A DNA stretch of 31,381 nt from an uncultured delta proteobacterium (GCA_963847445.1 CAWJZV010000036.1:1-31381), one strand, 5' to 3'. Numbered from the stretch's first letter, positions 4,523 to 22,384 are shown. Translations and numbers: made by a program. The notes: a model not told the origin generated them from the sequence alone.

Positions 4523-4554
4523 ACTCGCCTCATCGAAACAGGCAGGCTGAGTTC

Positions 4555-5530
4555 CTATTTCAACCCCAACTCGCGCCGCGCTTCGATCAATGGTTGGAAG
4601 TCGACAACCCTAGCAATCGGAATATCGCCGATGCCCTTGTCGAGTTTTCGGATTATCTGAAAATGCTCCTTTAAGCCTACGTCGCTGGCGATACCATCCG
4701 GGCTAAGCGCGCGAACGCGGCCGTAGACATCTTCGGCGACTGTGCGATCGATCTCCCACTCCCGCGCCATGATCTCAACGGTTTCCTTTGGCCGCTCTTT
4801 GGCGAACGCTAGTCCACGCGATAGCGCGCGTAGTAGCCGTTTCACTTGGTCGCGTTTGTCGCGCAGCGTCTTATCCGTGGTGGTGAAACCATTGGCCGGG
4901 AGCTCAGCCACATCGGCCAGCGACAACAATAAATTGAACCCCTTCTGCTTGAGCAGCAGATGGGACGGCGGCGCCGCCACCGTCGCGTCGATAGAACCGA
5001 AGCTAAGTGCGGCGACGCGAACGTTCTCCGTGCCGATCAAGATCATCGTCACGTCGCGCTCCGGGTCGAGGCCGTAGTGGCGCAGGCCGAGGCGCGTGGA
5101 CACTTCGGTGGCGCCGCCGAAGGAGCTGATGCCGATTATCTTTCCCTTGAGATCCTGGACCGATTTCAACTGGGGTTTCGCCATTAGGAAATACAGCGAG
5201 CTGCGCAACGAAAAGAATAGGCTTTTCATCGGGCTGCCCTTGGCCGCCAGACGCAAGCCCGACTCGGCCAAACCATGGTACTCGATATCACCGCCGAGCA
5301 GCGCTGAGTGCGCGATATTTGGCCGTAGGTTGGGAATCTCCAGCTCGAGCCCTTCGTCGCGGAAGAAACCGCGATCGGATCGCCACGTACATCGGCAGGT
5401 AGCCCATGGACTTGGCCGGGATGGCGAGTTTGATTTTCTCGATGCTCTGCGCGGCTTCAACATCCGGCTGCGCAGCAGCCAATACGCACAAGAAGACTAT
5501 CCGACCCATCCGTCCGATGATCCGTCCCAT
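4555..5530 (-). CDS. ABC substrate-binding protein, SsuA/NMT1/TauA family; frameshift near 5380
   Basis: Signal peptide and YLPMYVA (ORF 5288-5530) join RGFFRDEGLE...DLKGKIIGISSFG...GLDPERDV (ORF 4555-5463). Confidence 0.85.
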
Positions 5531-5535
5531 GTGCT

Positions 5536-6612
5536 CTAGATCCGTAAAGCCGTTTGGGATTGTCGGACAGCATCTTTTCGACCATCGTCTGCGAGAGGTC
5601 CTTACGTTCTCTGAATTCCGCGACCATATCTTCCTGGCGCGACGGATCGCCGTGGGGATAGTCGGAACCCCAGGACAAACGAGTCTTCACCTACTAACGC
5701 GGCAATGCCGGTCAAGTCTTCGTCCGGTTCGGCGCTGACGAACACCCTGCCGGTAGTGAAATACTCGATGGGATCCTTGGCTAACTTGCGGCGCATGTTG
5801 TCGCGCCGCACTTGCTTGATCATGAACGGCAGCCACGCCGCGCCGGCTTCGAGAAAACTGAAACGGAGATTGGCAATCTTCTCGAACGCCGCCGAGCTCA
5901 TGATGCTATTGAAGCCCATGACCACCGGCAGGATTGCGCTGTAAAAATTTGTCGTCGCGTCGAAAATGCGCGTCAACGCCGGACAGCCCCAGCCCAGGTG
6001 CACGCAGACCGGCAGATTCAAATCCGCCGCGACTTGATAGAACGGAAACAGGCTTTCATCGCCGAGCAGCTTATCCCACGCCATGCCTGGCAACATGACC
6101 GCGGCGGCGCCGATCTTGGCGGCGCGTTTGATCTCCCTGATCGACTCGTCGACATCGCGGATCGGCACCAGCGCGGCAAAGCGAATGCGTCCCTTGGAGG
6201 CCGCCGCGCACTCGCCGAGAAACGAATTGTAAACGCGCAGCAACGCCGCTTCCAGCTTTAGATCGTCAGCCGTATGCGTCAGGAACAAACTCGGAAACAC
6301 CACCTGCCTGTTGATCTTGACCTTGTCCATGTCGCGAAGGCGCGCCGGCACATCGGTGATCTCCTGAGCGCCGATCGATTCGCGCTTCTGGGTCGCCGCT
6401 TCCATCAGAGTAGGAGTGCGAAAAATCGTCCCGCCCTTGCCGACCAGCTTCGGATAGGTCTCGCCATCGATCAGCCACACGGCGTTGTACCGGCCATAAA
6501 CCGTGTCGCGGTCAAGTCGAACCGGCAACGGCCGCCGCGGCCGAAACTCCTTGTCCAACCGCTCGAACATCGCCTCGGATTCTTCGATATGGGCATCGGC
6601 GTCGATGATCAT
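5536..6612 (-). CDS. Amidohydrolase_2 family protein (LigW/ACMSD-like); frameshift near 5670, 3' end approximate
   Basis: IIDADAH, VCVH and FLEAG motifs; GSDYPHGD...DNPKRLYG continues in the second frame. Confidence 0.88.
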
Positions 6613-6641
6613 GATCCACTGCCAAAAAGTACCGTTTGCAA

Positions 6642-6761
6642 ATCAACCGGGCATTTCGCGATCGGGGTATGAACCCCGCTCGCGACCAAAGGGATGTTCA
6701 ACCCCCCTTTGGAAACCCCAGCAATTTTGTCCCCGCAGCAAGCTAAGGGGAATATTAGATT
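6642..6761. repeat. 120-bp structured dispersed repeat, copy 1
   Basis: Near-identical to 27258-27378, same orientation; three consecutive hairpins. Confidence 0.9.
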
Positions 6762-6857
6762 TACCGATCGACGCGAAAGCACTCCAAATATAAACCAATC
6801 CGGCTCATGAGCTAACAGTTTTGCATATGCGAATTGAAAGCGATTTTCCTTCTATTC

Positions 6858-6980
6858 GTTATTCCCCCGCAGCGGAATCCAGGTGACGGACAGTGTCCGT
6901 CATACCGTTGAAAAACGGTATCCAGGTTGAGGGGATGGACCCCGGTCGTCACCGGGGTGACGATAGAGCCGGCATGACGG
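6858..6980. repeat. Composite CGTC/GTCA-tagged REP-like element
   Basis: Units of GTCA-hairpin-TCCAG, closed by an inverted unit ending TGACG; same layout at 16267, 21118 and 25936. Confidence 0.85.
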
Positions 6981-7048
6981 ATCGATATCCAATGCGAAGA
7001 TCGATTCGCCGGCTCTCCGTCATCCGTCAACGCTATTCCCGCCAGCCG

Positions 7049-8305
7049 CTAGTTGGCCACACGCTTCGCCCCGGGTTTCAGATTCACCTCATAGATGCGA
7101 TTCGTGCTGGTCTGGTGGATCAACAGATTGCCTTCGCGGGTCGGCCGCATATGTCGGAGCATACCGGCGTAAATGTTTCCGGAAGGTATCGCCCAACTTT
7201 GGAATTTTTCGCTGGCAGGATCGAAGCGCACTAGCGCGTCGGGACGCCGGGCAGATTCATTGTACCAGACGATACCGTCGACGACGGCGATGGCATAGGG
7301 ATGGGAGCTCGGACCACTGGGCGAATCCCATTCTTTGTACTGGCCGTTTTTTGGATCCAGCCGGCCGAGGCGGCCAAGGCTCGAGTTGACGTACCAGATC
7401 ATTCCATCGGCAGCGATATCGAGCCGGCGCACTGTGGTCTTTTCGGGCAAGTTGAATTCACGAATTGCCAATGTCTCAGGATCGACCCTGAGCAAACAAT
7501 TGGCGCCGTTGCACGACACCCAAAGCGCGCCGTCAGCGGCGACTTTGATGCCATACGGCCGGGAATTCTTCCGCGGCGAGGTGACGAGCTTGATCTCGCC
7601 CGTCGACGGCACCAACCGGCCAATCATGTTCGAAACTTGCAAGGTGAACCAGAGCGTTCCCTTGGAATCGAACACCGCAGTATGCGGATCTTTGGCGGCT
7701 GGATCGGGCATCTTGTATTCGGTGATCATGCCGGTTTTGGGATCGAGCTTGCCCATGGTGCCGTTGCCATTGCCGGTGTACCAAATATTGCCGTCGCGGT
7801 CGGGCGTCACGCTGTGCGGCAAGGCCTTTTCCGGCAGGGTGTATTCGACAATCTCCCCGGTCTTACGATTGAGCCGACCGACAAGATTGCCATATTGCCC
7901 GCAATACCAGATCGAGCCGTCCGGCGCCTCCACGGGATCGCGTGCCCGCTGGCCCAATTGCGCCACCTTCCATTCACGAAAAGTTATCGACACCGGCCCG
8001 GAGACCAGTGTCGGAGCGAACTTCGCGCTCGGCGGGAAATGGGTTTCAAGATATTTTGTGATGCTGTCGAGTTGCGGCGTCCCCGACAAGTTGATCATCG
8101 TGCCGATGAGGTCCTTCCACTCGTCACGCGTGTAACCGGAGCTGCGCGTAAGCTGATTGAGATCATGGCAGGTGGTGCACGTGCCCTGAACCAGCGGCTT
8201 TCCCTCACCGTCCGGCAACTGCACCGGCGCCTGCGCGCCATCGGCCACCGGCACCAACATAAGCAGATAGACTGCAAAAATTGACGTCAAGATATATTGG
8301 CTCAT
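7049..8305 (-). CDS. Secreted cytochrome c / virginiamycin B lyase (Vgb)-like beta-propeller fusion
   Basis: GGAG RBS before ATG 8305; signal peptide; CTTCH heme motif; repeated P-H/Y-x-x-x-x-x-x-D-G-x-x-W propeller blades. Confidence 0.85.
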   Translation of the reverse strand: MSQYILTSIFAVYLLMLVPVADGAQAPVQLPDGEGKPLVQGTCTTCHDLNQLTRSSGYTRDEWKDLIGTMINLSGTPQLDSITKYLETHFPPSAKFAPTLVSGPVSITFREWKVAQLGQRARDPVEAPDGSIWYCGQYGNLVGRLNRKTGEIVEYTLPEKALPHSVTPDRDGNIWYTGNGNGTMGKLDPKTGMITEYKMPDPAAKDPHTAVFDSKGTLWFTLQVSNMIGRLVPSTGEIKLVTSPRKNSRPYGIKVAADGALWVSCNGANCLLRVDPETLAIREFNLPEKTTVRRLDIAADGMIWYVNSSLGRLGRLDPKNGQYKEWDSPSGPSSHPYAIAVVDGIVWYNESARRPDALVRFDPASEKFQSWAIPSGNIYAGMLRHMRPTREGNLLIHQTSTNRIYEVNLKPGAKRVAN

Positions 8306-8505: not shown

Positions 8506-9486
8506 TTACCTATATAGCCCGTCGATATAGCCGGACTTGTCGAATTCCTGAATGAAGCGGGCGTCCATAAAGTCGCGCGGATTGGCCGTGCGCGCGGCGG
8601 GGAGTTTTTTCGCCAGCTCGTCCAAAATCGTTTTGAAGCCCTCCGCGGACGGATAGGGTTTGATTTCCGCAGTGCCTTTCAACTGCTGATAGGATTCCTC
8701 CAGCACTTTCTCATCTTTAATCTGCATGTAGCGACCGATGGCGCGCTTGGCCACGGCAGGGTTGGCGCGGATCAATTGCACGCCTTCGAGAATCGATTTG
8801 ACCACGCGGCGAACTATGTCTGGATTTTTGGCGATCAAGCGCTGGGTGGTATTGAGTCCCACCTGTTGAAAGGGAATGTCCATTTCTTCCATGTTGGCGA
8901 ACACGCGAAAGCCGGACTCCACCGCCTTGTTATAATACGGCGGCTGCAGCAAAGCTCCGTCGAAAGTCTTGCCGGCGATCAAGGAGGTCGCGACCACCGG
9001 CGCGGAATCGCCGACTTGAATCAACCTGACATCGCGGTCGGGATCGAGACCGAGCTTGTTGATCAGCAAACGCATGGTGGCATCGTTGACCGTGCCGTAA
9101 CGGGTAACCCCGAGCACCTTGCCCTTCAAATCCGCCAGCGTGCGAATCTCCGGGCGAACCACCAAACGGTAATTGAGCTTCTGTTGAAAGCTCACAATCA
9201 TCACCAGATCCGCTCCTTGCACCCGCGCCGGCGCCATCAAGCTGGCCGAATAGCTGCCCATCTCGATCTCGCCCGCGATCAGCGCCGACTGGCCGAGATT
9301 GTTGCGCAGGAACAGCACCTCAGGGTTGAGACCGTTTTTCTCCAGGAGCTTACCTTCCTGCGCCACCCACAGCATCGCGGTCGCCGGACTTAATCCAGAG
9401 TAGCCGATGCGAAGCTTGTCGGCGGCAAGGAGTGCTTGCGGCAGAAGCACTAAGAGCAACAGCGAAATTTTAGTAATTCGTATCAT
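8506..9486 (-). CDS. ABC substrate-binding protein, SsuA/NMT1 family
   Basis: Intact 326-aa ORF; signal peptide; DLKGKVLGVTRYGT and GLDPDRDV; paralog of 13252-14277. Confidence 0.9.
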   Translation of the reverse strand: MIRITKISLLLLVLLPQALLAADKLRIGYSGLSPATAMLWVAQEGKLLEKNGLNPEVLFLRNNLGQSALIAGEIEMGSYSASLMAPARVQGADLVMIVSFQQKLNYRLVVRPEIRTLADLKGKVLGVTRYGTVNDATMRLLINKLGLDPDRDVRLIQVGDSAPVVATSLIAGKTFDGALLQPPYYNKAVESGFRVFANMEEMDIPFQQVGLNTTQRLIAKNPDIVRRVVKSILEGVQLIRANPAVAKRAIGRYMQIKDEKVLEESYQQLKGTAEIKPYPSAEGFKTILDELAKKLPAARTANPRDFMDARFIQEFDKSGYIDGLYR

Positions 9487-10127: not shown

Positions 10128-11832
10128 CTACGTTGTTCTCACCCATATCGACTGAGCTTCGGCATCTTGGCAGATACGGCATGGTATCGGCCTCCTATCG
10201 CCAGGTTCCTCAGCGCTCGTGCTGACAACCGTAACTTCGAAGTCGGCGCCATGCCGCTCTCGGTTGAGCACTTCAACCCGCTCGCCATTGGGCAAGCGCA
10301 CGATATGGCTTTCTCCCGGCGCGACGAAATCATTGCAGCGCATGCCAACCGTGAGATCCTCGGGACGAGATCCGCAGCGCAGCACACTCACCGGTTCATG
10401 GCCGGTGGCCACTGAAGCGTCCACCGCGTAGATCAACAAACCTTTGTCGCGAAATGTTTCGTTATCACCGACAGGCTGGGCAATTTCAACGATGTAGAGT
10501 TGCGAAGAATGCTCGCTCGGCACAACGATCATTTTGACGCCTTGAGCCGACTCCAGGGTCGTCAACCGCACCGAGAGCTCACCCGAGCTGAAATAGATCA
10601 GCTGCGACTCGTCGAGCCAGCCGAGCTTGTACTTATGCCACCCGAGAAAATGCCAGCCTATGATCCAGATCACACATGATGTCCCAAGCGCCGGTTGGCG
10701 TCAGCCACGCACCGGCCGCGTCGGGATGAAACCGATACAAATCCGGCAATCCAAATAAATGGCCAGTTTCATGCACGAGAACGCGAAATCCCCGATGGTA
10801 ACTGTCGCGGCCAAAAGTCACGACATGGTGCACCGCGCCATTGTTGGTCGTGATCGGAATCCCCGCGCTCAAAGTCGGAGACAGGTCCAATATTCCGACA
10901 TAAGGGGCGTCTTCGGGTGTTTCAGCCGCCACGATATAGGCGATATCATAGCGCGCAAAATCGATCTCGTCGGCGGTAAATAGTCCCAGCGCCGTGGTGA
11001 TATACGACGCATGTTCGGCACCATCACTGCGAATCTTGTCGTAAGCAGTCGCCGCGCGCGGCATCCGGCGCCACTCCGGGACCGGGGTGTCGACGGAGAA
11101 GCGCAACCGGCCGTAAGATTCCCGGCGGAACCATTCCACCGATTCGCCCACGATACTCTGGCGAGCCTTATCCGGCGATGCCGTGCCCGGCACGTCGGGA
11201 AAATCGACGAACACCATCACCGCCTTGACCTCGCCGATGGCAGGCTGATCGATGCGCCGTGGTTCGCTCGTCTCGTTGAGATTTTCGTTATGAATCGGAT
11301 CCAGCTCCGGCACGAAGTCACAGGCGACGTTGTCGATCTCCCACACCGGCAGCCGCGCGCTCGGCTGATATGCCGAGACGACCTGGTCGCCGATCATCGC
11401 CTCCCAATAGTCCCCGGAAAAAGAATCCAGGACGGTCTGGCCAGCCGGATCGAGAACCTGAATCAGCAGGGTTTCGCCATCTTCGCCTGCCGTACATAAA
11501 AGCCGCACCGATTCGGAACGATGATTTTCAACCAGGAACCGACAATGGTGGCCATTCTCGGGGTCGCCACTAGGCAAGCGCCATTCGCGCAACTCCTCGG
11601 AGACACCAAACTCGCCGACCACGTCCGCGCCGACCTTTGCCACCAGGCAGTCCGTCACCCACAATGGAATGTTTATTTCTTCCCCGGAACCCAGCTCCAC
11701 GACCAACACTTCTTCGAAAGTATTTGGGTCCATCCGGAAGATCGAAACCGCCACCGATTTCTCGTTGATAATCGAGATGTCGATCTTCGGAACCGCACCG
11801 CTCTCGTCGACGTGAACTGATTCTTGCGCCAT
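10128..11832 (-). CDS. M6 (immune inhibitor A)-like zinc metalloprotease with duplicated N-terminal module; frameshift near 10650
   Basis: AAGGAG RBS before ATG 11832; VFVDFPD, ESYGRL, HETGHLFGLPDLY and WDIM; second frame continues GWHKYKLGWL. Confidence 0.88.
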
Positions 11833-12316
11833 AGCGTTCTCCTTCAAAAGCTATGCAATGACTCTGTTGTACGGCTCGACTACAGAACAGCGAGATGCGT
11901 TGACAAGGCAATTCCGAGTCCGCTTTACAGTTTCCTTACGGCACTGGCGACGGCCGCCGCCGCCCGAACCATTGGTCCAGGAGTCGAACGGCGACAAAAA
12001 CCCTTCGATTGAGCCATCGGCACCGTTTATCATGATCGTCGCCTCGCGACTTTCCGATGGACACGTCATACTAGACTGCGCTGGTAGATGACAAGCATCT
12101 TGGCGAGATCACGCCGAACGACTAAAGAACCCGCCCATCTTACGGAAATGCTTTCGAAACGTCGCAGCTTTTTTTCATTTGTTTAAATAGGAAGGCCTGG
12201 CCCCAATACCCTGAAATGGACGCCGCCGATCGTCGATTTAATCACTCGTCTAACGATGTCGGGATTTCGCTCGATGCATTTTTGTGGGGTGTTCAATCCC
12301 GTCTGCTTTCTTCATC

Positions 12317-12865
12317 CTAACGAGAGTGCGGCAGGACAAAATTGAACCCTTGTGCTACGTGGCCTCCACCCGCGGCGCAACGCCCTTTAGCGGGGTATCC
12401 GTCGTAAAACATCGCGTGGCATTTGTTGCAGAACCGCCAATCCGTTTGTGCCTTTGGCGTTCCTCGAACATTGTGTGGAAGCACATAACGGAATGTATTA
12501 TCTGCTACGTGGCCTCCCCCAGTCGGACAACGTCCTTTTTCCCGATATCCGTTGAAAAACATCGCTTGGCACTTATTACAGCAGCGCCAATTCCTTTGGG
12601 CGGTTGATGTTTCTTGACCATCGAATGGCAGGCGAAATTGGTAACCTTGAGCTGCGTGGGTTCCACCAGCCGCACAGCTATTGGGGTTGGCATCGGTGTA
12701 AAACATTACATGGCACTTATTGCAGAAGCGCCAATAGGGTCGATCTTTAGTTACGGTTAAAGTTGCGCTTGCCCTGCTAAGCGGCCACGTTGCCCCGAGA
12801 ACGAATATACCCCCAGCAAGTTGTAATAGTCGGCGTCTGGACAACTCTGGGATTCCATGCAACAT
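12317..12865 (-). CDS. Tat-exported protein with three Cys/His repeats, function unknown
   Basis: GGGAGGG RBS; SRRRLL signal; three copies of WRxCNKC(H/Q)xMF-x-C-x-x-GGxH-x-FxLP. Confidence 0.85.
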   Translation of the reverse strand: MLHGIPELSRRRLLQLAGGIFVLGATWPLSRASATLTVTKDRPYWRFCNKCHVMFYTDANPNSCAAGGTHAAQGYQFRLPFDGQETSTAQRNWRCCNKCQAMFFNGYREKGRCPTGGGHVADNTFRYVLPHNVRGTPKAQTDWRFCNKCHAMFYDGYPAKGRCAAGGGHVAQGFNFVLPHSR

Positions 12866-13251
12866 AAAAAATTCCCTCCCAATTAATGTTGAGACTCTCC
12901 CGAACAATTTCGACTTCCAAATCACCGATACTGCCAACTAGATCCCCTAACCCACAGAGAAAGCAATGCGAATACCAACTCGATCGCGGTAAACATGACT
13001 TCGGCATCATAATGATTTCAAGACGATGGAGTGATCGCTCGCCATGATGGCGAGGTATGACGAAACGGTGGTTGCACTCTTCAGCAACTGCGGTTGACTC
13101 CCGCACCTGAAGTTTTCCAAGGCGCGGTAAGCTGGACTACAGGCAGGCGCAGTAGCTTAGCGAATTGACAGTTTCGATTTGGAAAGGAATCGCATGACCC
13201 ACGCTGGCTCCCCAACAAACATAATGTGGGCGTAACGTTTTCGTCGGACGG

Positions 13252-14277
13252 CTATTTATACAGCCCGTCTATGTACCCGGACTTGTCCAGCTCCTCGATG
13301 AAACGCGTGTCGACAAAATCCTTCGCGTTGGCGGTCTTGGCGGCGGGGAGGCGCTTGCCGGCTTCTTCGAAGATCGGTTTGAAGCCGTCGAGGTTCGGAT
13401 AAGGCTTGGGTTGGATGAAGCTGCGCAGCAGTTGATAGGAATCTTCCAAGTCGCGCTCGTCTTTGATCTGCATATGTTTGCCGATGGCGCGCTTGGCGGC
13501 GGCGGGATTGTTGCGCATAAAATGGATGCCGTCGATCATCGATTTAATCACTCGCCGAACAATGTCGGGATTTCGTGCGATGAATTTCTGGGTGGTGTTC
13601 AAACCCGTCTGCTGCAAGACGATGTCCATTTCCTGCATGTTCAACAGGACACGCATCCCCATGGCCGCCAATTTTTTGTCATAGGGCGGCTGCATGATCG
13701 CGGCGTCGATGGATTTGCCCACGGCAAGCGAATTAACCAGCACGGGCACATCGCCGCTTTGCACCAGGATCGACATCCTTCTCCGCGTCGAATCCAAGGC
13801 CGCGACAACAACAAGTCGCGTCGTCCAGTCGCTCACCGTGCCGAAACGCGTGACTCCGACCCGCTTGCCCCTGAGATCGGCAACCGAGCGAATCTCCGGC
13901 TTGACCACCAGACGATAGATCGGCTTATGCAGAAAGCTCAGCAGCATGACCACGTCGGCGCCCTGCAATCGCGCCGGCGTGAGCAAGCTGGCCGAGTAGA
14001 CACACATCTGAATCTCGCCGGCGATCAACGCCGTCTGTCCCAAGGTGGTTTGCAAGTAGAGAACTTCGGCGTCGATGCCGTTCTTTTCGAACAGCCGGCC
14101 CTCCTGAGTCACCCACAACATGGAGTTGGTGATCGTCGCGCCGGAGTAGCCGATGCGCAGCTTGTCGGCGGCAAAGCTCGGTTGCGCGGTCAAAGAAAGA
14201 ATAACAACGGCGACGGCGATCAAGAGAAATACGGCGAATGAACATCGGAGTCGTACCCTCACCCTTCCCTCTCCCAT
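13252..14277 (-). CDS. ABC substrate-binding protein, SsuA/NMT1 family; start uncertain (possibly ATG 14245)
   Basis: Close paralog of 8506-9486 (ADKLRIGYSG...LDKSGYIDGLY); locally garbled by compensating indels near 13770-13815. Confidence 0.88.
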   Translation of the reverse strand: MGEGRVRVRLRCSFAVFLLIAVAVVILSLTAQPSFAADKLRIGYSGATITNSMLWVTQEGRLFEKNGIDAEVLYLQTTLGQTALIAGEIQMCVYSASLLTPARLQGADVVMLLSFLHKPIYRLVVKPEIRSVADLRGKRVGVTRFGTVSDWTTRLVVVAALDSTRRRMSILVQSGDVPVLVNSLAVGKSIDAAIMQPPYDKKLAAMGMRVLLNMQEMDIVLQQTGLNTTQKFIARNPDIVRRVIKSMIDGIHFMRNNPAAAKRAIGKHMQIKDERDLEDSYQLLRSFIQPKPYPNLDGFKPIFEEAGKRLPAAKTANAKDFVDTRFIEELDKSGYIDGLYK

Positions 14278-14293: not shown

Positions 14294-14311
14294 AAGAGAG
14301 TGACATCGGTC

Positions 14312-14353
14312 GGAAACGTTTTGAACGATTTGAACGGCTTGAACGTTTTGAAC
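14312..14353. repeat. 9-nt tandem repeat (TTGAACGNN)
   Basis: ggaaacgttttgaacgatttgaacggcttgaacgttttgaac. Confidence 0.85.
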
Positions 14354-14355
14354 TC

Positions 14356-15409
14356 TTAATCTTTTATTAATTTAGTCACCGACCGCGTCGAGCCGCCTTC
14401 CGGCGTGCTCTGGCCCCAGACGTGAATGTACTGCGACTGCGAGCCGTCGCCGCCGGCGACGATGACGAGAATATCCTCGGGCTTGTCGGTGACCGGGATG
14501 ATGCTGTCGCGAGTCAGCTTAAGATCGGAGCGGCGCTTGACCCGCTGGAAGAAGGTTTCGTCGGGCAAGTCTTTCATCCGGTACGCGGCGCGCTCCCAGA
14601 CGAACTTCTGCACGTCCTTTTTGCTGAAGCCGTCGTCGGCGATGATCTTGGCATGCTCCGGGCAGATGACCATGATCGCCTCAGGGCCGGAAGGTCCTTC
14701 CATTTTCTGGGCGAAGTTGATCAGCACCCCTTCGGCTTTCGAGCTGTCCAGGTCGGAGGCGCGGATCGACGCATCGGCGCTGATCGCCGTCACCGTGCTT
14801 TGCTCGGCTTTGAAACCGCGCTCGACATGGAGCGGCTCCCAGGGACTCGCTTCCTCGTTTTCGCCGACGCAAATGGAATATTTTCCCGGGCCAGCCCAGC
14901 GTCGCCTTGCAGGTCGTGCCTGGATAAGAACCGCCGATGTTGCGCTTCACCAACTGCACGAAGCGGCCGATGGTGGCGTTGGCGCGCCAGCCTTCGCCAA
15001 GTGCGTTGGAGCCGCCGTTGACGTTCAATTGCTGGCGCACCGGGCCGTTGATGATGATCATCACCGCCGGCCCGCCGGTGGTGGCTTGCAGGGCGTAGAG
15101 ATTCAACTTGGGATCGGTGATCGCTTCCACCGCGGCGATCAGTGTCGGCATGTACTCGGGCTTGCAGCCGGCCATGACGCCGTTGATGGCGATTTTTTCC
15201 ACCGTCGCTTGCGCCCAGCGCGGCGGTACCGCGCCGATCACTTCATCCGCTTTGCGCTTGGTCGCCGCCAACATTTGCGCGACGCGCGCTTCGGTGGGCG
15301 GGATGATCGGCAGGCCATCGGACCAGCCTTTTTCTTCGAAGAAGGCCTGCGCCTCCCAAATGTCATCCGGTATTTCGACTCGTTCCGCTGCCAATGCTGC
15401 CGTTGCCAT
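14356..15409 (-). CDS. Conserved protein with GWSDGLPIIPPT motif (UGSC-associated partner); frameshift near 14880
   Basis: DGLPIIPPT, EKIAINGVMAGC, RANATIGR; after the shift ENEEASPWEPLHVERGF...ICPEHA...ILVIVAGG. Confidence 0.8.
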
Positions 15410-15447
15410 AAATTCCACCCTTCAAAATTAGACTCGCAATCTCTATT

Positions 15448-15532
15448 CGTCATTCCCGCGAAAGCGGGAATCCAGGTTTGTTGCCGGCGAACCGAAGGCA
15501 AAGATGGATACCGGCCTGCGCCGGTATGACGG
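15448..15532. repeat. CGTC-tagged REP doublet
   Basis: CGTCATTCCCGCGAAAGCGGGAATCCAG...TGGATACCGGCCTGCGCCGGTATGACGG. Confidence 0.88.
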
Positions 15533-15619
15533 ACTAGGAATGGAAACAAAAAAAAGTCTCGGATTCCGAGTCCGCTGTTCAATACGAAACTCGAAACCCG
15601 AAACTTGAAATTATCTCTG

Positions 15620-16171
15620 CTAGGCGACCTTCGCCCGCGCCGCCTCGGGCGCAAGCAGAATATTCACCAGCTGATCAAATGCCGCGTCGGCCTTCTTGTT
15701 CACTTCTTCGATCTTGACCGTGCCGATGGGATGCTGCACCACCAACACCGGATGATCCGGCGCTCCGAAAGCTTCCTTCTCGGACTTTGCCAATGCGGTG
15801 AAGGCGTGGGTGATCAACGTGATCGCGAACCGTCCGCGCTTTTGGATCTCGAGTGAGTCGTGGACACTCCACGACGTGCAGGAGCCTCAATCACCGAGGC
15901 CGCAAATGACGAAGTCGGCTTGCGACGCGAGTTCGTCGAGATACTGTTTGGGCGCTCCTTGCTGGGCGGTCAGCTTGCGCCGCGTGACCATGCCGGCGAC
16001 GCCGTATCTTTCTTTCAACAATTCCGCGAAGCGCTCCGCCAATTTGTCGGCGTTGGGTTTGCTGTTATCGAGCAGCCCCACCACTTTGCCGCGCAGATCG
16101 GTGAACTGGGCTATACCCGCGATTTTCGCCGCCGAGCTCTGCGCTTTCCCTTCCGGGCTGAGAACAATCAT
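15620..16171 (-). CDS. UGSC-family selenoprotein (183 aa, Sec at TGA 15887-15889)
   Basis: AGGAGGA RBS; ORFs 15887-16171 and 15620-15817 share a frame and are separated only by TGA; readthrough gives GLGD-U-GSCTSWSVHD; hairpin follows the TGA. Confidence 0.9.
15857..15875 (-). promoter_or_regulatory. Putative bacterial SECIS hairpin
   Basis: mRNA GUCGUGGA-GUG-UCCACGAC, starting 11 nt after the UGA. Confidence 0.75.
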
Positions 16172-16266
16172 TTAATGTCCTCCTCCTGTTAAATTTGCCA
16201 CCACTGTAATCGACTGCTACTCACTGTGTCAAAACTAGTTGCGACTATACGCTCTCTTATTCATCT

Positions 16267-16380
16267 CGTCATTCCGGCGTGGGCCGGAATCCAGGTGACG
16301 GACGGCGTCCGTCATACCGTTGGAGAACGGTATCCAGGTGGATGATGGGGTCTGGATGCCGGCCTGCGCCGGCATGACGG
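16267..16380. repeat. Composite CGTC-tagged REP-like element
   Basis: Two tandem forward units plus one inverted unit ending CATGACGG. Confidence 0.88.
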
Positions 16381-16408
16381 ATCACGACTCATCGCTTCCA
16401 ACAAAAGA

Positions 16409-17497
16409 CTACAGCGCATAGAACGCCTTCGGATTGTCGTAAAGAATTTTCTGCACCGCCGACTGCGGGATATCGCCCTTGTCGGCGCGGGCTTGCAACT
16501 CCTTGCGGAACTCCAGCTCCATCGACGGATCGCGATGGGTATAGTCCGAACCGACCATCAAATTATCCTCGCCGACGGTTTTAATGATAAGCGGCAGGTC
16601 CTCGTCCACCTGGCAGGTGACCCAGATCCGGTTGTCCTTGAAGACATTGCTCGGAATATCGATCAGCGGCACGCCGAGAACACCGACCGACTCGCGCCCC
16701 TGCTGCTTGATCGCCTGCCGTTTCAAATCGTACGCCACGAACGGCGTCCACATGGAGCCCGCTTCGATGCAGCCGATGCGCAGCTTGGGAAACTTCATCG
16801 GGATCTTGTGCAAGACCAATCCGAGCACACCGTTGATCGCCGCCCCCTTGGTGCGCATAAACTGGCCATGGGAGAACTCCCGCGCCGGTGAAAAATCCGG
16901 AATTCCGGAGCCGGTATGAATGCAGATCGGCAGATCAAGCTTTTCCGCCGCCGCATAGAGAGGTTCGAAATAGGGATCGGCGGGATACTTCCCCGCTTCG
17001 CGGTCACCCTTTTTTATGACGCCGCAGGCGCCATGCTCTTTCGCCCAGGTCAGCTCTTCCAGCACCGTATCGATTTTCTGCACCGGCGGCATGCAGATCC
17101 AGCGCAAGCGGCCGCCCGAATGACTGCAACGCTCGCCCAACCAGCGATTGTAGCTTTTCCGCGTCGCCGTGCTCGCCTCGGGATTCTCCGACGCTTCCAT
17201 TAGAAACAAAGTCGGATAAATCACCTGAACATCGGTTCCGAGCTCATCCATATGTTTGAGCCGGGCATCGATGTCAAGCAGCTCGCGGGTCTCAACAGTG
17301 GTACCGGAATCCTTGTCACTGCGGATGAAGCGCACTTGACGCTTGCCCTCGATCACCCAATAACGGGCCGGCGGCAGTTTCGGATCGGGGTTGGATGGAT
17401 ACGCGGTCGTCGGCTTGTAGGCCAGATCGCCGCCGCTCATGAACTCCCAAGTGGCATCGGTTTCGTCGATATGTGTGTCAGCGTCAATTATGCGCAC
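16409..17497 (-). CDS. Amidohydrolase_2 family protein
   Basis: IIDADTH, ICIHTG, CIEAG, GSDYTHRD, DNPKAFY. Confidence 0.92.
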   Translation of the reverse strand: MRIIDADTHIDETDATWEFMSGGDLAYKPTTAYPSNPDPKLPPARYWVIEGKRQVRFIRSDKDSGTTVETRELLDIDARLKHMDELGTDVQVIYPTLFLMEASENPEASTATRKSYNRWLGERCSHSGGRLRWICMPPVQKIDTVLEELTWAKEHGACGVIKKGDREAGKYPADPYFEPLYAAAEKLDLPICIHTGSGIPDFSPAREFSHGQFMRTKGAAINGVLGLVLHKIPMKFPKLRIGCIEAGSMWTPFVAYDLKRQAIKQQGRESVGVLGVPLIDIPSNVFKDNRIWVTCQVDEDLPLIIKTVGEDNLMVGSDYTHRDPSMELEFRKELQARADKGDIPQSAVQKILYDNPKAFYAL

Positions 17498-17788: not shown

Positions 17789-18871
17789 CTACAACCCATA
17801 AAATGCTTTAGGATTGTCGTAGAGGATCTTCTCCACCGCCGTCTTGGGAATCTCGCCCCGGTCGGCTCGTTGTTGCAATAGCGTGCGAAACTCCAACTCC
17901 ATCGACGGGTCGCGGTGTGTATAGTCGGAGCCGACGATCAGATTGTCCTCGCCGACATATTGCAGGATGTACGGCAGATCCTCATCGACCTGGCAGGTGA
18001 CGTAGATGCGGTTTTCCTGGTAGACGTTGCTCTTGATTATCGTCGGCGGTCCGCCCAGGACGCTCACCCGCCCGGTGCGCGACTTCATCCGCCGGCGCAG
18101 GTCATAATCGACAAAGTTGACCCAGGAAGCGCCCGCTTCGATGCAACCGAAGCGCAACTTGGGGAACTGCGCCGGAATGTTGTTGACGATCAAGGTCTCG
18201 ATACCGTTGACCGCCGCGGCTTTAGTGCGCCAGAACTGCGCTAAAGAAAAATCCCGCGCCGGCGAAAAATCGGGGATTCCCGAACCGGTGTGAATGCAGA
18301 TCGGCAGGTCGAGCTTTTCCGCCTCCGCGTAAAGCGGCAGAAAGTATGGATCGGTGATCCATTTGTCGGCCTCGCGGTCGCCCTTCTTCAAGACGCCGCA
18401 CGCGCCATGCTCCTTGGCGAAGCGCAGCTCTTTGATGGTCTCGTCCATATTGTGCAGCGGCGGCAGGCACACCCAGCGCAACCGGCCCGCCGATCGTCCG
18501 CAGCGATCGGCAAGCCAGCGGTTGTAGCTACGGCGCAGCGCGCTGGACACTTCGGGCTTCTCGGTCGCCTCCATGAGAAAAACCGTCGGGTAGATGACTT
18601 GAATATCGGTGCCGAGCTGGTCCATGTGTTTGAGCCGGACTTGGACATCCAGCAGTTCCCGCGATTCCACCACCGTCCCCGATTCTTCGTCGCCGCGGAT
18701 AAAACGCAGCTGGCGCCGCCCATCGATCAGCCAATAACGGGTCGGGACTTTGGTCGGATCGGGATTGGCGGGGTACTGCGTCGTCGGTTTGAACCTTAGA
18801 TCGTCGCCCGTCATGAACTCCCAAGTGTCCTCGGTTTCATCGATATGCGTATCGGCGTCTATGATTCCCAT
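17789..18871 (-). CDS. Amidohydrolase_2 family protein, tandem paralog of 16409-17497
   Basis: GGAGG RBS before ATG 18871; IIDADTH, ICIHTG, GSDYTHRD. Confidence 0.92.
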   Translation of the reverse strand: MGIIDADTHIDETEDTWEFMTGDDLRFKPTTQYPANPDPTKVPTRYWLIDGRRQLRFIRGDEESGTVVESRELLDVQVRLKHMDQLGTDIQVIYPTVFLMEATEKPEVSSALRRSYNRWLADRCGRSAGRLRWVCLPPLHNMDETIKELRFAKEHGACGVLKKGDREADKWITDPYFLPLYAEAEKLDLPICIHTGSGIPDFSPARDFSLAQFWRTKAAAVNGIETLIVNNIPAQFPKLRFGCIEAGASWVNFVDYDLRRRMKSRTGRVSVLGGPPTIIKSNVYQENRIYVTCQVDEDLPYILQYVGEDNLIVGSDYTHRDPSMELEFRTLLQQRADRGEIPKTAVEKILYDNPKAFYGL

Positions 18872-18962
18872 GATGATTCCCTCCGATTCGTAAATAGCCT
18901 CGCCCCGATCCCAACGTTTCTCACTAGAGAGACTGTGGAGCAATGCGCGGGAGTCCGAGTTC

Positions 18963-19910: not shown

Positions 19911-21030
19911 TCACACCTCGCCAAACAGCCGGATCGGATTATCGTATAGAATCTTCTGCTTCTGCCGCTCGGTGATATCCGTGCGCGCCAACAGCTCCCG
20001 CGCGGCGTTCTCGCGTCCTTCGCCATGCGGATAGTCCGAGGAAAACAACAATTGACCTTCGCCCGAGCAGCGCGATTTCTTGGGTCATCAACGGATCCTC
20101 CATCTCGCCGCAGATAAAGAAGCGGCCCGACTTGAGACACTCTTTCATCGCCGTCTTAGGCATCTTCGCTTCTAATATTTGCGGCTGGATCTCGCGGTCG
20201 CGCGGAATGTAGTGATCGATACGCCCGGCCATGTAGAACAGCCACTCGGCGCCAAATTCCATAAAAGCGATGCGCAGATCGGCATAGCGGTCCATCATGC
20301 CGCGGCCGAGCAACGCGACGAACGCCATCTGCGCCGGCAAGGCCATGCTCAAGGCGTGGGCGTCGAGAAAAGTTTCGACGCAACTATCGAAGGCCGGGAA
20401 GCTCGCCGCCATATGCACACAAAGCGGCAATTGGCAGCGCGCAAACTCATCCCAGAAGTCATTGAACATCTCATCGCTCAGCATCTTGTCGCGGGCGGTG
20501 CCAAACACCACCGCCGCCGAGGCGCCGAGCTTGAGCATTTCCTCCAGCGCGGCGATGGACTCACGCGGATGACGCAGCGGAATCAACCCGGCCCATTTCA
20601 ACCGCTTGGCGTAGGGTTTGGTTTGGCGCGCGATGAATCGGTTGAAGGCGCGAAACAACGCCGCTTCGAATCGCGGATCGGCGGTCCAGCGGGCGTATAG
20701 CGTCGACGGAAAGAGAAATTGCACGTCGATGCCCAAACGGTCGAGATCGCGAATGCGCGCATCGGCATCGACCAGAGTGAGCGAGCCGCGATCGGTGCCT
20801 TCGACCACCCAACGCGGCGGGTTCGCCGGTTGCAGTCCCGGCCCCAGCGCATGGGGTTCCATGCGGCCGTCGGTCAACCATCCCGCGGTAAACGCCGCCA
20901 GCTCCGCGCCATCGTGAACCAGTGCCGGGCGCGGCCGCCGCGCCGCGAACTCCTTGGGCAAATCTTCCCACATCTGCGGCGCCACATTGACATGCGCGTC
21001 AGCGTCATAGATTCGATAACCGTCGATCAT
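19911..21030 (-). CDS. Amidohydrolase_2 family protein; frameshift near 20062
   Basis: YDADAH, LCVH, FMEFG; after removing one extra base reads GEGQLLFSSDYPHGE...DNPIRLFGEV, stop at 19911. Confidence 0.88.
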
Positions 21031-21250: not shown

Positions 21251-21343
21251 ATTATGCAGTGCGACGCTGCGTTGACACAAATCGCGGCTGGGTGTTAAGC
21301 CAACGGTGATCATTCGATTTGCTTGCTTGGGAGAACACTCATC

Positions 21344-22384
21344 ATGGACGGAGTTGAAGTCATAGACGCCGACGGTCATGTCTTGGAGACCGACGCGGAG
21401 CTGGAAGAATACTTCGACGGCGAGTACACCGGCCACCGGCGCTCGGGAGTTTTTTCAATCTTTCCCTCTCTCGACGGTTGGCCGCGCGGCTTCGTCCGGG
21501 GTTTGAATAAAGTCACGCGCATCTCCGCCAAGGAGTGGATCGAGTTTATCGATGGTTCGCAGATCAGCGCCGCCGTGCTCTATCCCACCGCCGGCCTCTC
21601 CTTCGGTCTTATCCAAGATCCCGACTGGGCCTGCGTGGTCGCGCGCATGTACAACAACTGGCTGGCCGACCGCTACTGCAAAGTCGACCCGCGGCTGAAA
21701 GGCGTCGCCATGCTGCCGGTGCACAACCCGCAGGAAGCGGCGAGTGAACTTCGCCGCGCCGTCAAAGAACTCGGCATGGTCGCCGGTCTGCTGCCGGCGG
21801 TGACGATGCTCAACAAAGGCTACGGCCACCAAGACTTTCACCCGATCTACAAGGCAGCCGAAGCGCTCAACGTGCCGCTGACCGTGCACGGCGCCGTCAG
21901 CCGCGGCTTGGGATTCGATTTTCTCCAAACCATGTCGATGATCCACACTCTCGAACATCCGCTCGCGCAGATGATCCAGCTTACCAGCGTGGTCCTGGAC
22001 GGCGTGTTCGATTTATTTCCCAAGCTGAGAATCGGCTTTCTCGAAGCCGGCGCCGGCTGGATTCCCTACATGATGGACCGCATGGACGAGAAATTTCACA
22101 TCGACCGCAAGCGCAAACATTTCCCATTGAGCGTCAAACCGAGCGAATACTTCAAGCGCGGCAACATCTATGTCACCTGCGAGACCGACGAAAAGACTCT
22201 CGACGCCGTCGTCCGCGAGCTCGGCGAAGATCATGTCATGTACCCGACGGATTTTCCCCACGAACGCCAGGCCGGCGAATTCGCCGTCGACATCCCCGAG
22301 TTCTGGCAGCGCCGAGATTTATCCGAGCAAGCCAAGCGCAAGATCCTCAGCGAGAACGCCAAACGGTTCTACGCGCTGCAATGA
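21344..22384 (+). CDS. Amidohydrolase_2 family protein
   Basis: VIDADGH, LTVHG, FLEAG, PTDFPHE, ENAKRFY; TTGACA upstream at 21272. Confidence 0.92.
   Translation: MDGVEVIDADGHVLETDAELEEYFDGEYTGHRRSGVFSIFPSLDGWPRGFVRGLNKVTRISAKEWIEFIDGSQISAAVLYPTAGLSFGLIQDPDWACVVARMYNNWLADRYCKVDPRLKGVAMLPVHNPQEAASELRRAVKELGMVAGLLPAVTMLNKGYGHQDFHPIYKAAEALNVPLTVHGAVSRGLGFDFLQTMSMIHTLEHPLAQMIQLTSVVLDGVFDLFPKLRIGFLEAGAGWIPYMMDRMDEKFHIDRKRKHFPLSVKPSEYFKRGNIYVTCETDEKTLDAVVRELGEDHVMYPTDFPHERQAGEFAVDIPEFWQRRDLSEQAKRKILSENAKRFYALQ

What the first reader, a model, noticed from the sequence alone, without database searches (positions are those of the whole stretch)
15620..16171. Hidden UGSC selenoprotein: in-frame TGA forms a U-x-x-C redox motif
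Seen: two small ORFs are one reading frame interrupted only by TGA at 15887-15889. Readthrough gives GD-U-GSCTSWSVHD...HP, followed by an 8-bp hairpin. Established: UGSC-motif proteins are a predicted selenoprotein family of unknown function with CGSC homologs. Standard gene callers would split this gene.
Basis: partly seen in the sequence, partly recalled or inferred. Interest (0 to 1): 0.85.

Follow-up and report, generated by a model that had tools for sequence, protein, structure and literature searches.

The report
UGSC selenoprotein gene with partner enzyme
The stop codon inside this small gene is almost certainly read as selenocysteine, which makes it an ordinary member of the already catalogued UGSC selenoprotein family, encoded as usual next to a large uncharacterised partner protein.

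Summary
A minus-strand frame, 16171 to 15620, has 183 sense codons and is broken only by TGA at 15887-15889, giving GD-U-GSCTSWSVHD. An 8-bp hairpin starts 11 nt after the TGA.

The read-through protein passes the curated cut-offs of Pfam PF24696 (UGSC) and NCBIfam NF041046, "UGSC family (seleno)protein". The TGA is not an error or a nonsense mutation:
- Both other UGSC genes of this genome carry it.
- So do 82 of 84 matches in 37 related genomes. The other two are fragments that miss the column.
- So do 84 of 84 motif occurrences in 80 loci from several phyla.

The hairpin meets the four published bacterial SECIS criteria. Its codons are frozen (Ser AGT in 100 of 100) and it shows compensatory changes.

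selA, selB and selD (itself with a Sec codon) are present. No intact tRNA-Sec gene is in this 92%-complete, indel-rich assembly, only two remnants beside an integrase.

Function is inferred, not shown. The fold model is flavodoxin-like. The gene is followed by, or fused to, an unnamed ~350-residue family in 106 of 116 cases. A complex model puts the U-x-x-C motif in the interface (0.81; best control 0.00).

The family is known, and this scan has reported it many times on other DNA.

The parts
16203..16232 (-). sigma-70-like promoter match (TTGACA, 18 nt, TACAGT) upstream of the gene
   Evidence: 10 of 12 hexamer positions. This is a consensus match only; 4 sites were found in the region against 1.5 expected.
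16179..16187 (-). ribosome-binding site AGGAGGAGG, 7 nt before the ATG
   Evidence: Read directly.
15620..16171 (-). UGSC family selenoprotein gene: 183 sense codons including Sec95, then TAG
   Evidence: PF24696 153.1 bits; NF041046 133.8 bits, above the cut-off of 125. The AF2 model is a single domain spanning the TGA, pLDDT 89.9.
15887..15889 (-). in-frame TGA, read as selenocysteine (U95) of the U-G-S-C motif
   Evidence: Cys stands at this column in Cys-form homologues.
15857..15875 (-). bacterial SECIS hairpin: 8-bp stem, loop GUG (or 7 bp with loop AGUGU), loop starting 19 nt after the UGA
   Evidence: -11.1 kcal/mol. Frozen codons; 98.9% of 800 cells paired, 4 of 8 pairs with changes on both sides, 0 of 500 shuffles reach this. 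Criteria come from the PMC13188914 Fig. 2 legend.
15548..15570 (-). terminator-like hairpin CTCGGAATCCGAG followed by a T run, 50 nt after the stop
   Evidence: pattern match only (8 found, 4.4 expected). Contigs of two runs carry one more base in the run (table 4, place 15547).
14356..15418 (-). partner gene (~350 aa, unnamed family), next gene downstream. It is split into two frames here by one extra base in a C run near 14885-14890. The likely start is the ATG at 15409.
   Evidence: intact orthologue P0002; single 1-nt insertion; contigs of 3 runs all lack that base; no Pfam or NCBIfam hit; conserved adjacency.

Best explanation
The gene at 16171-15620 (minus strand) is a genuine member of the UGSC (seleno)protein family. 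Its single in-frame UGA is recoded to selenocysteine by SelB and tRNA-Sec, guided by the hairpin that starts 11 nt downstream. That hairpin also encodes the conserved peptide T-S-W-S-V-H-D.

Shown here: family membership, conservation of the TGA, a SECIS that meets the published criteria, and the presence of selA, selB and selD.

Inferred: the protein is a small alpha/beta, flavodoxin-like domain. Sec95 and Cys98 sit at the end of strand 3 and the start of helix 3. There they can cycle between selenol/thiol and selenenylsulfide, as a CxxC pair does at the helix end in thioredoxin.

Inferred: it does not act alone. It is the redox subunit of a two-part enzyme whose large subunit is the next gene (14356-15418). 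That gene belongs to a very large unnamed family with an invariant Cys and no solved structural relative. The substrate is unknown. The neighbours (solute-binding proteins, Amidohydro_2, MmgE/PrpD, CoA-ligase-like, aconitase) point loosely to organic-acid catabolism. The electron source is probably a thioredoxin-type system.

The confidence given is for the gene being a real UGSC-family Sec gene that is decoded as Sec in this organism. The two-subunit model alone I put at about 0.6.
For: Family.

TGA conserved:
- 3 of 3 copies in this genome.
- 82 of 84 matches in relatives; the 2 others miss the column.
- 84 of 84 in 80 loci labelled Binatia/'delta proteobacterium', Chloroflexota/Dehalococcoidia, Burkholderiales and others.
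- TGA is an ordinary stop here: it ends 996 of 2383 open frames of at least 350 codons.

SECIS:
- 8-bp stem, 3-nt loop with G first then U, 19 nt from the UGA, -11.1 kcal/mol. The criteria are 3-9 nt loop, 4-16 bp stem, G in the first two loop positions, 16-37 nt spacing and energy of -7.5 or lower (PMC13188914).
- In 100 distinct sequences the hairpin codons are frozen: Ser AGT 100 of 100, Ser TCG 98, Thr ACG 87, His CAC 94, Asp GAC 92. The two codons before it vary freely: Gly GGC 43/GGG 39/GGA 9/GGT 9; Ser TCG 47/TCC 43/TCT 7/TCA 3.
- 4 of 8 pairs show compensatory changes, and 0 of 500 shuffles reach this.

Machinery:
- selA scores 569.8 bits.
- selD scores 360.3 bits and has its own in-frame TGA at SAG-U-AAK.
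- selB is found in pieces.
- The frame breaks in these genes are six 1-nt insertions relative to three relatives whose genes are whole.

Reads: contigs of other runs cover the codon and no difference is listed there. One metatranscriptome contig spans 15781-15958.

Fold: pLDDT 89.9, five beta-alpha units. Best matches are flavodoxin-like, CheY-like and Rossmann-like chains.

Partner:
- Of 116 UGSC genes examined, 78 have the partner as the next gene on the same strand, 28 are fused to it, 5 are cut by a contig end and 5 have none.
- The partner is also fused to CxxC thioredoxin-like domains (P0198, P0223, P0269).
- Complex model: ipSAE 0.81 in each of 3 runs, best of 3 controls 0.00. That mark was reached by 58 of 80 solved complexes and 2 of 110 mismatched pairs. 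At least 96% of contacts are shared between runs and the partner pLDDT is at least 84. The counts hold only roughly because my own alignments were used. UGSC residues 95-97, 99-101 and 104 lie in the interface.
Against: - No intact tRNA-Sec gene is in this assembly. The best RF01852 score is 45 bits (gathering score 47), on a tRNA-Ser. ARAGORN's 'tRNA-SeC' at C2:139122 is not supported by Rfam.
- Only the first 23 nt (C4:239464-239486) and the last 28 nt (C12:77575-77602, beside a tyrosine integrase) of the genus's tRNA-Sec are found. The middle 44 nt are missing.
- selB does not reach its cut-off as one match.
- The 66-nt fold is not better than shuffles.
- No Rfam family matches the hairpin.
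- The loci were picked by the peptide that the hairpin encodes, so amino-acid conservation there is partly by selection. Codon choice is not.
- Only 40 of 168 read-level differences were shown, so an unlisted variant at the codon cannot be fully excluded.
- The complex model used a Cys-form stand-in (P0275, 78% identical) and a partner from a relative (P0002), with unpaired alignments.
- The partner's invariant Cys82 is not itself in the confident contact list.
- A thioredoxin-reductase-like gene lies beside the pair in only 1 of 12 loci scanned (L085).
- Nothing here shows selenium in the protein or any activity.
Confidence: 0.85

Rival explanations
1. The gene is a true UGSC selenoprotein gene, but this strain can no longer decode it. 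Its tRNA-Sec gene was destroyed when an integrase-bearing island inserted there, so the UGSC genes and selD are recent relics.
For: - Only 23-nt 5' and 28-nt 3' remnants of tRNA-Sec are found, on two contigs. The 3' one lies 48 nt from a tyrosine integrase gene.
- The 5' remnant differs at 2 positions from a same-genus tRNA-Sec, and one change breaks an acceptor-stem pair.
- selA, selB and selD have broken frames in the assembly.
Against: - All four TGA-bearing genes (3 UGSC, selD) keep open frames on both sides of the codon.
- The frame breaks are all single-base insertions. The same kind of break in the partner gene is contradicted by contigs of three other runs.
- Integration at a tRNA normally restores the gene at the other end of the island.
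- The assembly is 91.8% complete in 48 contigs, so an intact copy may be unassembled.
- 7 of 13 genomes of the genus searched, this one included, hold a 75-77 bit tRNA-Sec.
Confidence: 0.08
2. The TGA is a real stop: a nonsense mutation in a pseudogene, or two separate small genes.
For: Table 11 gives two ORFs. Gene callers report halves.
Against: - The codon is conserved across phyla.
- The sequence after it is conserved as protein.
- The second piece has no start codon at the junction.
- One compact domain spans the codon in the model.
Confidence: 0.02
3. The TGA is an assembly or sequencing error for TGC or TGT.
For: The assembly is error-prone.
Against: - Its errors are 1-nt insertions, not substitutions.
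- The same TGA is in two paralogues and in every relative that covers the column.
- Contigs of other runs cover the place and no difference is listed there.
Confidence: 0.01
4. TGA is read as another amino acid (Trp or Gly) under a variant genetic code, or by plain read-through without selenium.
For: Some database entries show W at the column.
Against: - TGA ends 996 of 2383 long frames in this genome.
- Homologues have Cys, not Trp, at the column.
- A conserved SECIS, selA, selB and selD are present.
- The W forms sit on roughly 0.9-1.3 kb contigs. I take them to be TGA read as Trp by the gene caller. That is my inference; no call shows which code was used.
Confidence: 0.01

Closest known systems
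UGSC family (seleno)protein (NCBIfam NF041046, Pfam PF24696; 'UGSC-containing protein' of Zhang and Gladyshev)
   Same: - Scores above both curated cut-offs.
- Has the U-G-S-C motif at the family's column, with Cys-form homologues.
- The function is unknown in print (passages).
- A fusion with a conserved 'Unknown_1' domain is reported (PMC2398784).
   Different: - Nothing material for the gene itself.
[quoted passage not shown] My model is five beta-alpha units with flavodoxin-like matches.
- I could not see Fig. S1A of that paper, because supplements are closed. That 'Unknown_1' is the partner family found here is therefore likely but unchecked.
Selenoprotein B of glycine/sarcosine/betaine reductase and D-proline reductase (GrdB, PrdB; Pfam PF07355)
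   Same: - A Sec in a UxxC motif (PrdB is listed as UxxC in GOS Table 2).
- A selenoprotein that works with a second, larger catalytic protein encoded beside it. The mechanism of those enzymes is recalled, not from a call.
   Different: - No PF07355 hit at E up to 0.1.
- The partner has no Pfam or NCBIfam family.
- There is no evidence of a pyruvoyl group.
- This is an analogy of working principle only.
Thioredoxin-type CxxC/UxxC redox proteins
   Same: - Two redox residues two positions apart at the start of a helix.
- The partner family is fused to CxxC thioredoxin-like domains in other lineages (P0198, P0223, P0269), as if these domains and UGSC were interchangeable suppliers of the redox pair.
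   Different: - The predicted secondary-structure order is beta-alpha repeated five times.
- None of the 50 best VIA rows is described as a thioredoxin-fold protein.
Bacterial SECIS consensus model (bSECIS)
   Same: All four constraints of the model are met.
   Different: - The hairpin is unusually uniform in sequence across phyla.
- It also codes for a conserved peptide, T-S-W-S-V/I-H-D.

Membership tests
UGSC family (seleno)protein (NF041046 / PF24696) | Profile score above the curated cut-off | tested here: met
   NF041046 133.8 bits against 125. PF24696 153.1 bits against 25.
UGSC family (seleno)protein (NF041046 / PF24696) | U or C, then G-S-C, at the family's motif column | tested here: met
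   Alignment A1 of 30 sequences. The column holds U (read from TGA), C, or W where a caller read TGA as Trp. S stands there in two divergent fusions.
UGSC family (seleno)protein (NF041046 / PF24696) | Selenium actually incorporated at residue 95 | not testable with these tools
   Needs 75Se labelling or mass spectrometry.
Bacterial selenoprotein gene (Sec decoding) | SECIS: apical loop of 3-9 nt and upper stem of 4-16 bp | tested here: met
   Loop GUG (3 nt) with an 8-bp stem, or AGUGU with 7 bp. Criterion from PMC13188914.
Bacterial selenoprotein gene (Sec decoding) | SECIS: G in one of the first two loop positions, usually followed by G or U | tested here: met
   The loop starts G-U. These two columns are invariant in 113 sequences.
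Bacterial selenoprotein gene (Sec decoding) | SECIS: 16-37 nt between the UGA and the apical loop, and energy of -7.5 kcal/mol or lower | tested here: met
   19 nt; -11.1 kcal/mol for the hairpin alone.
Bacterial selenoprotein gene (Sec decoding) | selA, selB and selD in the same genome | tested here: met
   - selA 569.8 bits and selD 360.3 bits, both above their cut-offs.
- selB is found in four pieces of 178.8, 91.2, 58.3 and 22.5 bits in shifted frames, none above 242.25 alone.
- The shifts are 1-nt insertions absent from three relatives.
Bacterial selenoprotein gene (Sec decoding) | tRNA-Sec (selC) in the same genome | tested here: inconclusive
   - No match reaches the gathering score.
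- Only 23-nt and 28-nt remnants are found, on two contigs.
- The assembly is 91.8% complete.
- 15 of 21 related genomes searched, this one included, hold a 73-78 bit tRNA-Sec.
Thioredoxin fold | Fold match to thioredoxin-like structures | tested here: inconclusive
   Not among Foldseek's listed matches or the 50 best VIA rows. Those are flavodoxin-like, CheY-like and Rossmann-like, with Z from 10.8 down to 8.6. An absence from a list does not exclude a fold.
GrdB/PrdB selenoprotein B (PF07355) | Sequence match to the family profile | tested here: not met
   Only PF24696 is reported at E up to 0.1.

The most novel reading that the evidence does not exclude
UGSC and the unnamed ~350-residue protein encoded after it, or fused to it, are the two subunits of an undescribed selenium-dependent enzyme. 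Its large subunit has a fold without a solved relative and an invariant cysteine. UGSC supplies a selenol/thiol pair that thioredoxin-like domains supply in other lineages. This would finally give a function to one of the commonest environmental selenoproteins.
Probability: 0.6. Interest if true: 0.6.

Novelty: new member of a known kind. Interest (0 to 1): 0.3.

Why it matters
For annotation: the gene should be called as one 183-codon selenoprotein gene, not as two fragments. The partner gene, selA, selB and selD in this assembly are broken by single-base insertions that look like assembly errors.

For biology: the UGSC family has been known since 2007-2008 and is abundant, yet it has no function. 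What makes it testable is the near-constant pairing with one large unnamed family, the swap with thioredoxin-like domains, and a complex model that puts the Sec motif in the interface. That lead is not specific to this window. A fusion was already printed in 2008, and this scan has reported the pairing many times on other genomes (714 findings in at least 440 genomes).

Tried and rejected
- Rfam scan of 15500-16300 at E up to 10 gave only two chance microRNA rows and no SECIS family.
- The 66-nt fold around the codon has z = 0.09, so it is not informative.
- ARAGORN's tRNA-SeC at C2:139122-139203 (82 nt, anticodon at position 30) is rejected. Rfam gives nothing there at gathering level.
- PDB by sequence found nothing for UGSC (best E 0.087, a designed protein) or for the partner (best E 0.15, ATP synthase epsilon).
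- Partner fold searches:
  - Foldseek gave no match at E of 0.001 or lower. The best is class I fumarate hydratase 7xky_A (E 1.8e-3, TM 0.25).
  - VIA over 48,161 chains gave a best Z of 6.1 (rmsd 5.9, 83 aligned), covering residues 214-339 only.
  - A second look at Foldseek's list gave a best Z of 5.9, on chorismate-mutase-like chains over residues 209-339.
  - The first ~200 residues were barely tested by these lists. I therefore do not claim a new fold, only that no relative was found.
- The Atlas gave clusters auto-named 'Thioredoxin family protein' without any common Pfam family. The recognition value was below the usual mark.
- The search for related loci with the 30-row alignment failed for lack of a conserved stretch. 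It was repeated with a 9-row alignment.
- Neighbourhood as a guide to the substrate: 12 diverse loci gave a mixed set (TctC and other binding proteins, MmgE/PrpD, CoA-ligase-like, Amidohydro_2, aconitase, one TrxR-like gene). No single conserved third gene emerged.
- Sequencing runs: RNA runs hold only small shares (0.06-0.09). One RNA contig spans the codon, but contigs cannot show level or strand. I make no claim of expression or habitat.

Full report
**1. The observation**

The gene lies on the minus strand. ATG at 16171-16169 is preceded by AGGAGGAGG at 16187-16179. It opens a frame that ends at TAG 15622-15620 and is interrupted only by TGA at 15889-15887, codon 95.

- Read with TGA=U it gives 183 residues with the motif ...ICGLGD-U-GSCTSWSVHD....
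- Table 11 splits it into 15887..16171 (94 aa) and 15620..15817 (65 aa, from an internal TTG).
- Starting 11 nt after the TGA, the RNA can form GUCGUGGA-GUG-UCCACGAC (window 15875-15857). This is 8 bp and -11.1 kcal/mol on its own.

**2. Family**

- The read-through protein scores 153.1 bits on Pfam PF24696 'UGSC family' (cut-off 25).
- It scores 133.8 bits on NCBIfam NF041046 'UGSC family (seleno)protein' (cut-off 125).
- I read only passages found by term search. They describe the 'UGSC-containing protein' as follows:
  - a predicted selenoprotein of unknown function (PMC1976440);
  - one of the most abundant selenoprotein families in ocean and especially non-marine aquatic metagenomes, with a UxxC motif, 255 Sec forms and 21 Cys forms, 'likely' a Trx-like fold, and a fusion to a conserved domain called Unknown_1 (PMC2398784);
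  - still uncharacterised in 2022 and 2026 reviews (PMC9312934; PMC13188914).
- A search of the held library for 'UGSC' with 'selenoprotein' listed 9 papers. None has a title or abstract start that reports a function.

**3. Is the TGA real and meant?**

- This genome holds three PF24696 matches and each has exactly one in-frame TGA:
  - the window's gene;
  - a 188-residue paralogue on C15, also with U-G-S-C;
  - a 554-residue protein on C24 with H-U-S-T-C.
- In 41 genomes of the same order (this one included), 37 have the family. Of 84 matches, 82 have exactly one TGA. The two without are contig-end fragments covering profile positions 100-171 and 2-80, which miss the Sec column.
- A scan of one genome per species found at least 596 loci. 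In the best 80, all 84 motif occurrences have TGA. Their record labels are Binatia or 'delta proteobacterium', Chloroflexota/Dehalococcoidia, Burkholderiales/Betaproteobacteria, Acidiferrales, Rhodospirillaceae and Streptomyces-labelled bins.
- That set was picked by the peptide SCTS[WY][SV][VI]HD just after the codon, not by the codon itself.
- TGA is an ordinary stop in this genome: it ends 996 of 2383 open frames of at least 350 codons.
- Cys stands at the column in true Cys forms (P0275, P0291, P0312, P0314, P0317).
- Gene callers do split the gene. 34 of 51 database relatives cover at most 57% of the query. Of 16 near-full-length ones fetched, 10 carry W at the column, 5 carry C and 1 is frameshifted.

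**4. The SECIS**

The published bacterial model asks for four things (PMC13188914 Fig. 2 legend):

| Criterion | Model | This hairpin |
|---|---|---|
| Apical loop | 3-9 nt | GUG, 3 nt |
| Upper stem | 4-16 bp | 8 bp |
| UGA to loop | 16-37 nt | 19 nt |
| Energy | -7.5 kcal/mol or lower | -11.1 kcal/mol |

The hairpin meets all of them.

I aligned 113 copies (100 distinct). Before the count I left out L026 (unpublished genome), L015 (a different hairpin) and L084 (cut by a contig end).

- Codons inside the hairpin are frozen: Ser AGT 100 of 100, Ser TCG 98, Thr ACG 87, His CAC 94, Asp GAC 92.
- The two codons just before it vary freely: Gly GGC 43, GGG 39, GGA 9, GGT 9; Ser TCG 47, TCC 43, TCT 7, TCA 3.
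- For the 8-bp stem, 98.9% of 800 cells pair.
- 4 of 8 pairs show changes on both sides (8 cells). Examples are G-C to A-U by synonymous TCG>TCA with CAC>CAT, and ACG>ACA with GAC>GAT.
- 0 of 500 shuffles reach these values. Slid controls pair in 17.8-51.8% of cells.
- The divergent paralogue class (L015, which is this genome's C24 copy) has a different hairpin at the same distance, with loop GGUC.

Against this: the 66-nt fold is no better than shuffles (z 0.09), and Rfam has no matching family.

**5. Sec machinery**

- selA (569.8 bits), selB and selD (360.3 bits) lie together on C14:191.5-195.9 kb.
- selD has its own in-frame TGA at ...KSAG-U-AAKLGPGD..., so the genome encodes at least four Sec codons.
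- All three genes have broken frames in this assembly. Aligned to three same-genus genomes, the breaks are six single-base insertions. In those genomes selA (463 aa), selB (644-665 aa) and selD are whole.
- The window's partner gene has the same kind of break: one extra C in a C run near 14885-14890. Contigs of three other public runs all lack that base (table 4). I therefore read these breaks as assembly errors.

tRNA-Sec is the weak point.

- ARAGORN's 'tRNA-SeC' on C2 is not supported.
- The best RF01852 score is 45 bits, on a tRNA-Ser, below the gathering score of 47.
- 15 of 21 related genomes searched (this one included) hold a 73-78 bit tRNA-Sec. That includes 7 of 13 of the genus.
- This genome has only the first 23 nt (C4:239464-239486, with the native upstream flank) and the last 28 nt (C12:77575-77602, with the native downstream flank).
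- The 28-nt piece lies 48 nt from a tyrosine integrase gene. That is the usual picture of an island integrated at a tRNA.
- The middle 44 nt were not found.
- The assembly is 91.8% complete with 6.9% contamination. An intact copy may be missing from the bin. It is also possible that this strain has lost it.

**6. Reads**

- Twenty runs hold part of 14300-16300. The best DNA holders share 0.56-0.58 of the sampled words.
- Four runs were laid at 90% likeness.
- DNA contigs cover the codon, for example X1 record 8 (15863-16300, 2 other letters).
- One metatranscriptome contig (X15 record 12) spans 15781-15958.
- No difference at 15887-15889 is among the 40 of 168 rows shown.
- These are contigs, so they show presence only.

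**7. What the protein looks like**

- AF2 with a 30-row alignment gives pLDDT 89.9 and pTM 0.83. The model is one domain of five beta-alpha units.
- Sec95 and Cys98 sit between strand 87-93 and helix 96-111.
- Foldseek's 33 matches at E of 0.001 or lower include flavodoxin-like FMN reductases (AzoR, WrbA, SsuE), flavodoxins, receiver domains and G domains, at TM 0.33-0.51 in the rows shown.
- VIA's best rows run from Z 10.8 (8s7v_H, rmsd 4.7, 138 aligned) down to Z 8.6. They are Rossmann-like, flavodoxin-like or CheY-like chains, and none is described as a thioredoxin fold.
- This does not settle the fold class, but it does not support the 'Trx-like' guess in print.

**8. The partner**

- The next gene (14356-15418) is intact in a relative as P0002, 350 aa.
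- It has no Pfam or NCBIfam family and no PDB relative by sequence.
- It is very common. 7171 of 8000 scored candidates match at E of 0.001 or lower, and all the names given are 'hypothetical protein'. There are 5580 representatives of 50%-identity clusters at E of 0.001 or lower.
- In a 68-row alignment D31, P34, G81, C82, G122, R149, E183 and G319 are invariant. C180 is conserved in at least 90% of rows.
- The AF2 model is confident (pLDDT 95.4, pTM 0.93), but no solved chain matches it well (see Tried and rejected).

Context of 116 UGSC genes (32 from relatives, including this genome's three, and 84 from other species):

| Arrangement | Count |
|---|---|
| Partner is the next gene on the same strand | 78 |
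| Fused to the partner | 28 |
| Cut by a contig end | 5 |
| No partner within 1.5 kb (L014, L016, L123, L124, L141) | 5 |

One adjacent case, L026, is from the unpublished genome G005.

- This genome also shows the fused form (C24) and an orphan pair: UGSC on C15 and the partner on C26:63015-64031.
- Other fusion partners of the same domain are CxxC thioredoxin-like modules (P0198, P0223, P0269), UGSC-like modules with C, S or I at the Sec column, and a second copy of the domain itself (P0125, P0186).

**9. Do they bind?**

- A complex model used the partner (P0002 with its alignment) and a Cys-form UGSC (P0275, 78% identical to the window's protein, with 13 relatives).
- It scored ipSAE 0.81 in each of three runs. 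The best of three controls scored 0.00.
- That mark was reached by 58 of 80 solved complexes and 2 of 110 mismatched pairs. These counts hold only roughly because my own alignments were used.
- The runs share at least 96% of contacts, and the partner pLDDT is at least 84.
- The UGSC N-terminal strand (residues 1-11) lies on partner residues 8-15 and 37-43.
- UGSC residues 95-97, 99-101, 104 and 123-134 face partner residues 61-79, 103-111 and 153-169.
- The model supports binding; it does not show it. Cys82 itself is not in the confident contact list.

**10. How it most likely works**

Shown:
- a Sec-coding gene of a known family;
- a conserved SECIS;
- a conserved gene pair, often fused.

Inferred:
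- UGSC is the small redox subunit of a two-part enzyme. Its Sec/Cys pair cycles between reduced and selenenylsulfide states. It is re-reduced by a thioredoxin-type system.
- Support for the reductant is thin. The partner is fused to thioredoxin-like domains in some lineages. A thioredoxin-reductase-like gene follows the pair in 1 of 12 loci scanned (L085).
- The working principle resembles selenoprotein B of the glycine and proline reductases. This is recalled knowledge and an analogy only: no PF07355 match was found.
- The substrate is unknown. Neighbours here and elsewhere are solute-binding proteins, Amidohydro_2, cupins, MmgE/PrpD, CoA-ligase-like proteins and aconitase. This suggests organic-acid catabolism at best.

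**11. Novelty**

- The gene is a new member of a known family.
- The pairing with the partner goes beyond what I could read in print (one sentence on a fusion). It is not new to this scan, where earlier agents reached the same reading on many other genomes.
- I reached it independently before looking, and their notes are not evidence.
- Interest is low to moderate.

Noticed in passing
G000 C4:239464-239486 and C12:77575-77602 (loci L148, L149): The genus's tRNA-Sec gene is present only as a 23-nt 5' piece and a 28-nt 3' piece on two contigs, each with its native flank. The 3' piece lies 48 nt from a tyrosine integrase gene (L149:3151-4341, minus strand). This looks like an island integrated at selC. 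The middle 44 nt are not in the assembly.
   Followed up: partly
window 14885-14890; G000 C14:192732-195735: The assembly carries many single-base insertions that break reading frames: one in the partner gene (contradicted by contigs of three other runs) and six in selA, selB and selD relative to three relatives. Several other window genes also appear as overlapping ORF pairs in two frames, for example 234-959 with 700-1965, 10128-10673 with 10633-11847, and 27395-27889 with 27831-28871.
   Followed up: partly
window 15447-15477, 15505-15534, 16266-16296, 16309-16339, 16353-16381; also about 14300-14366: Palindromic REP-like repeats flank the UGSC gene on both sides. In metagenome contigs these bins reach summed depths of 1600-7900, against about 10 for the genes, so the element is highly repeated. 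A REP-associated-transposase-like ORF lies next to the partner paralogue on C26 (about 65201-64245). I identified that ORF by eye, not by a profile.
   Followed up: partly
G000 C2:139122-139203: ARAGORN calls an 82-nt 'tRNA-SeC' with the anticodon at position 30. Rfam finds nothing there, and the sequence looks like coding DNA. It is probably a false positive that could mislead an automatic check for selC.
   Followed up: yes
window 3908-4519: A Phd/YefM antitoxin gene (3908-4210) is followed by a ParE toxin gene (4220-4519). This is an ordinary type II toxin-antitoxin pair.
   Followed up: no
G000 C15:55975-56484 and C26:63015-64031: A second UGSC gene has no partner beside it, and a stand-alone partner paralogue (42% identical to P0002) has no UGSC beside it. 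Both lie next to NMT1-like binding-protein genes. They may work together in trans.
   Followed up: partly
window 5605-6612, 16409-17497, 17789-18943, 21323-22384 and 4555-5463, 8506-9486, 13252-14277: The window is rich in paralogous Amidohydro_2 genes (four) and NMT1/THI5-like binding-protein genes (three). It also has cupins, a glyoxalase-family gene, an FlK-like thioesterase and a GST. This looks like a catabolic region of unknown substrate.
   Followed up: no
window 10131-11847, 12320-13106, 19942-21030: Long minus-strand ORFs have no Pfam family. Two of them are apparently split by frameshifts. They are not related to the partner family by tblastn.
   Followed up: no
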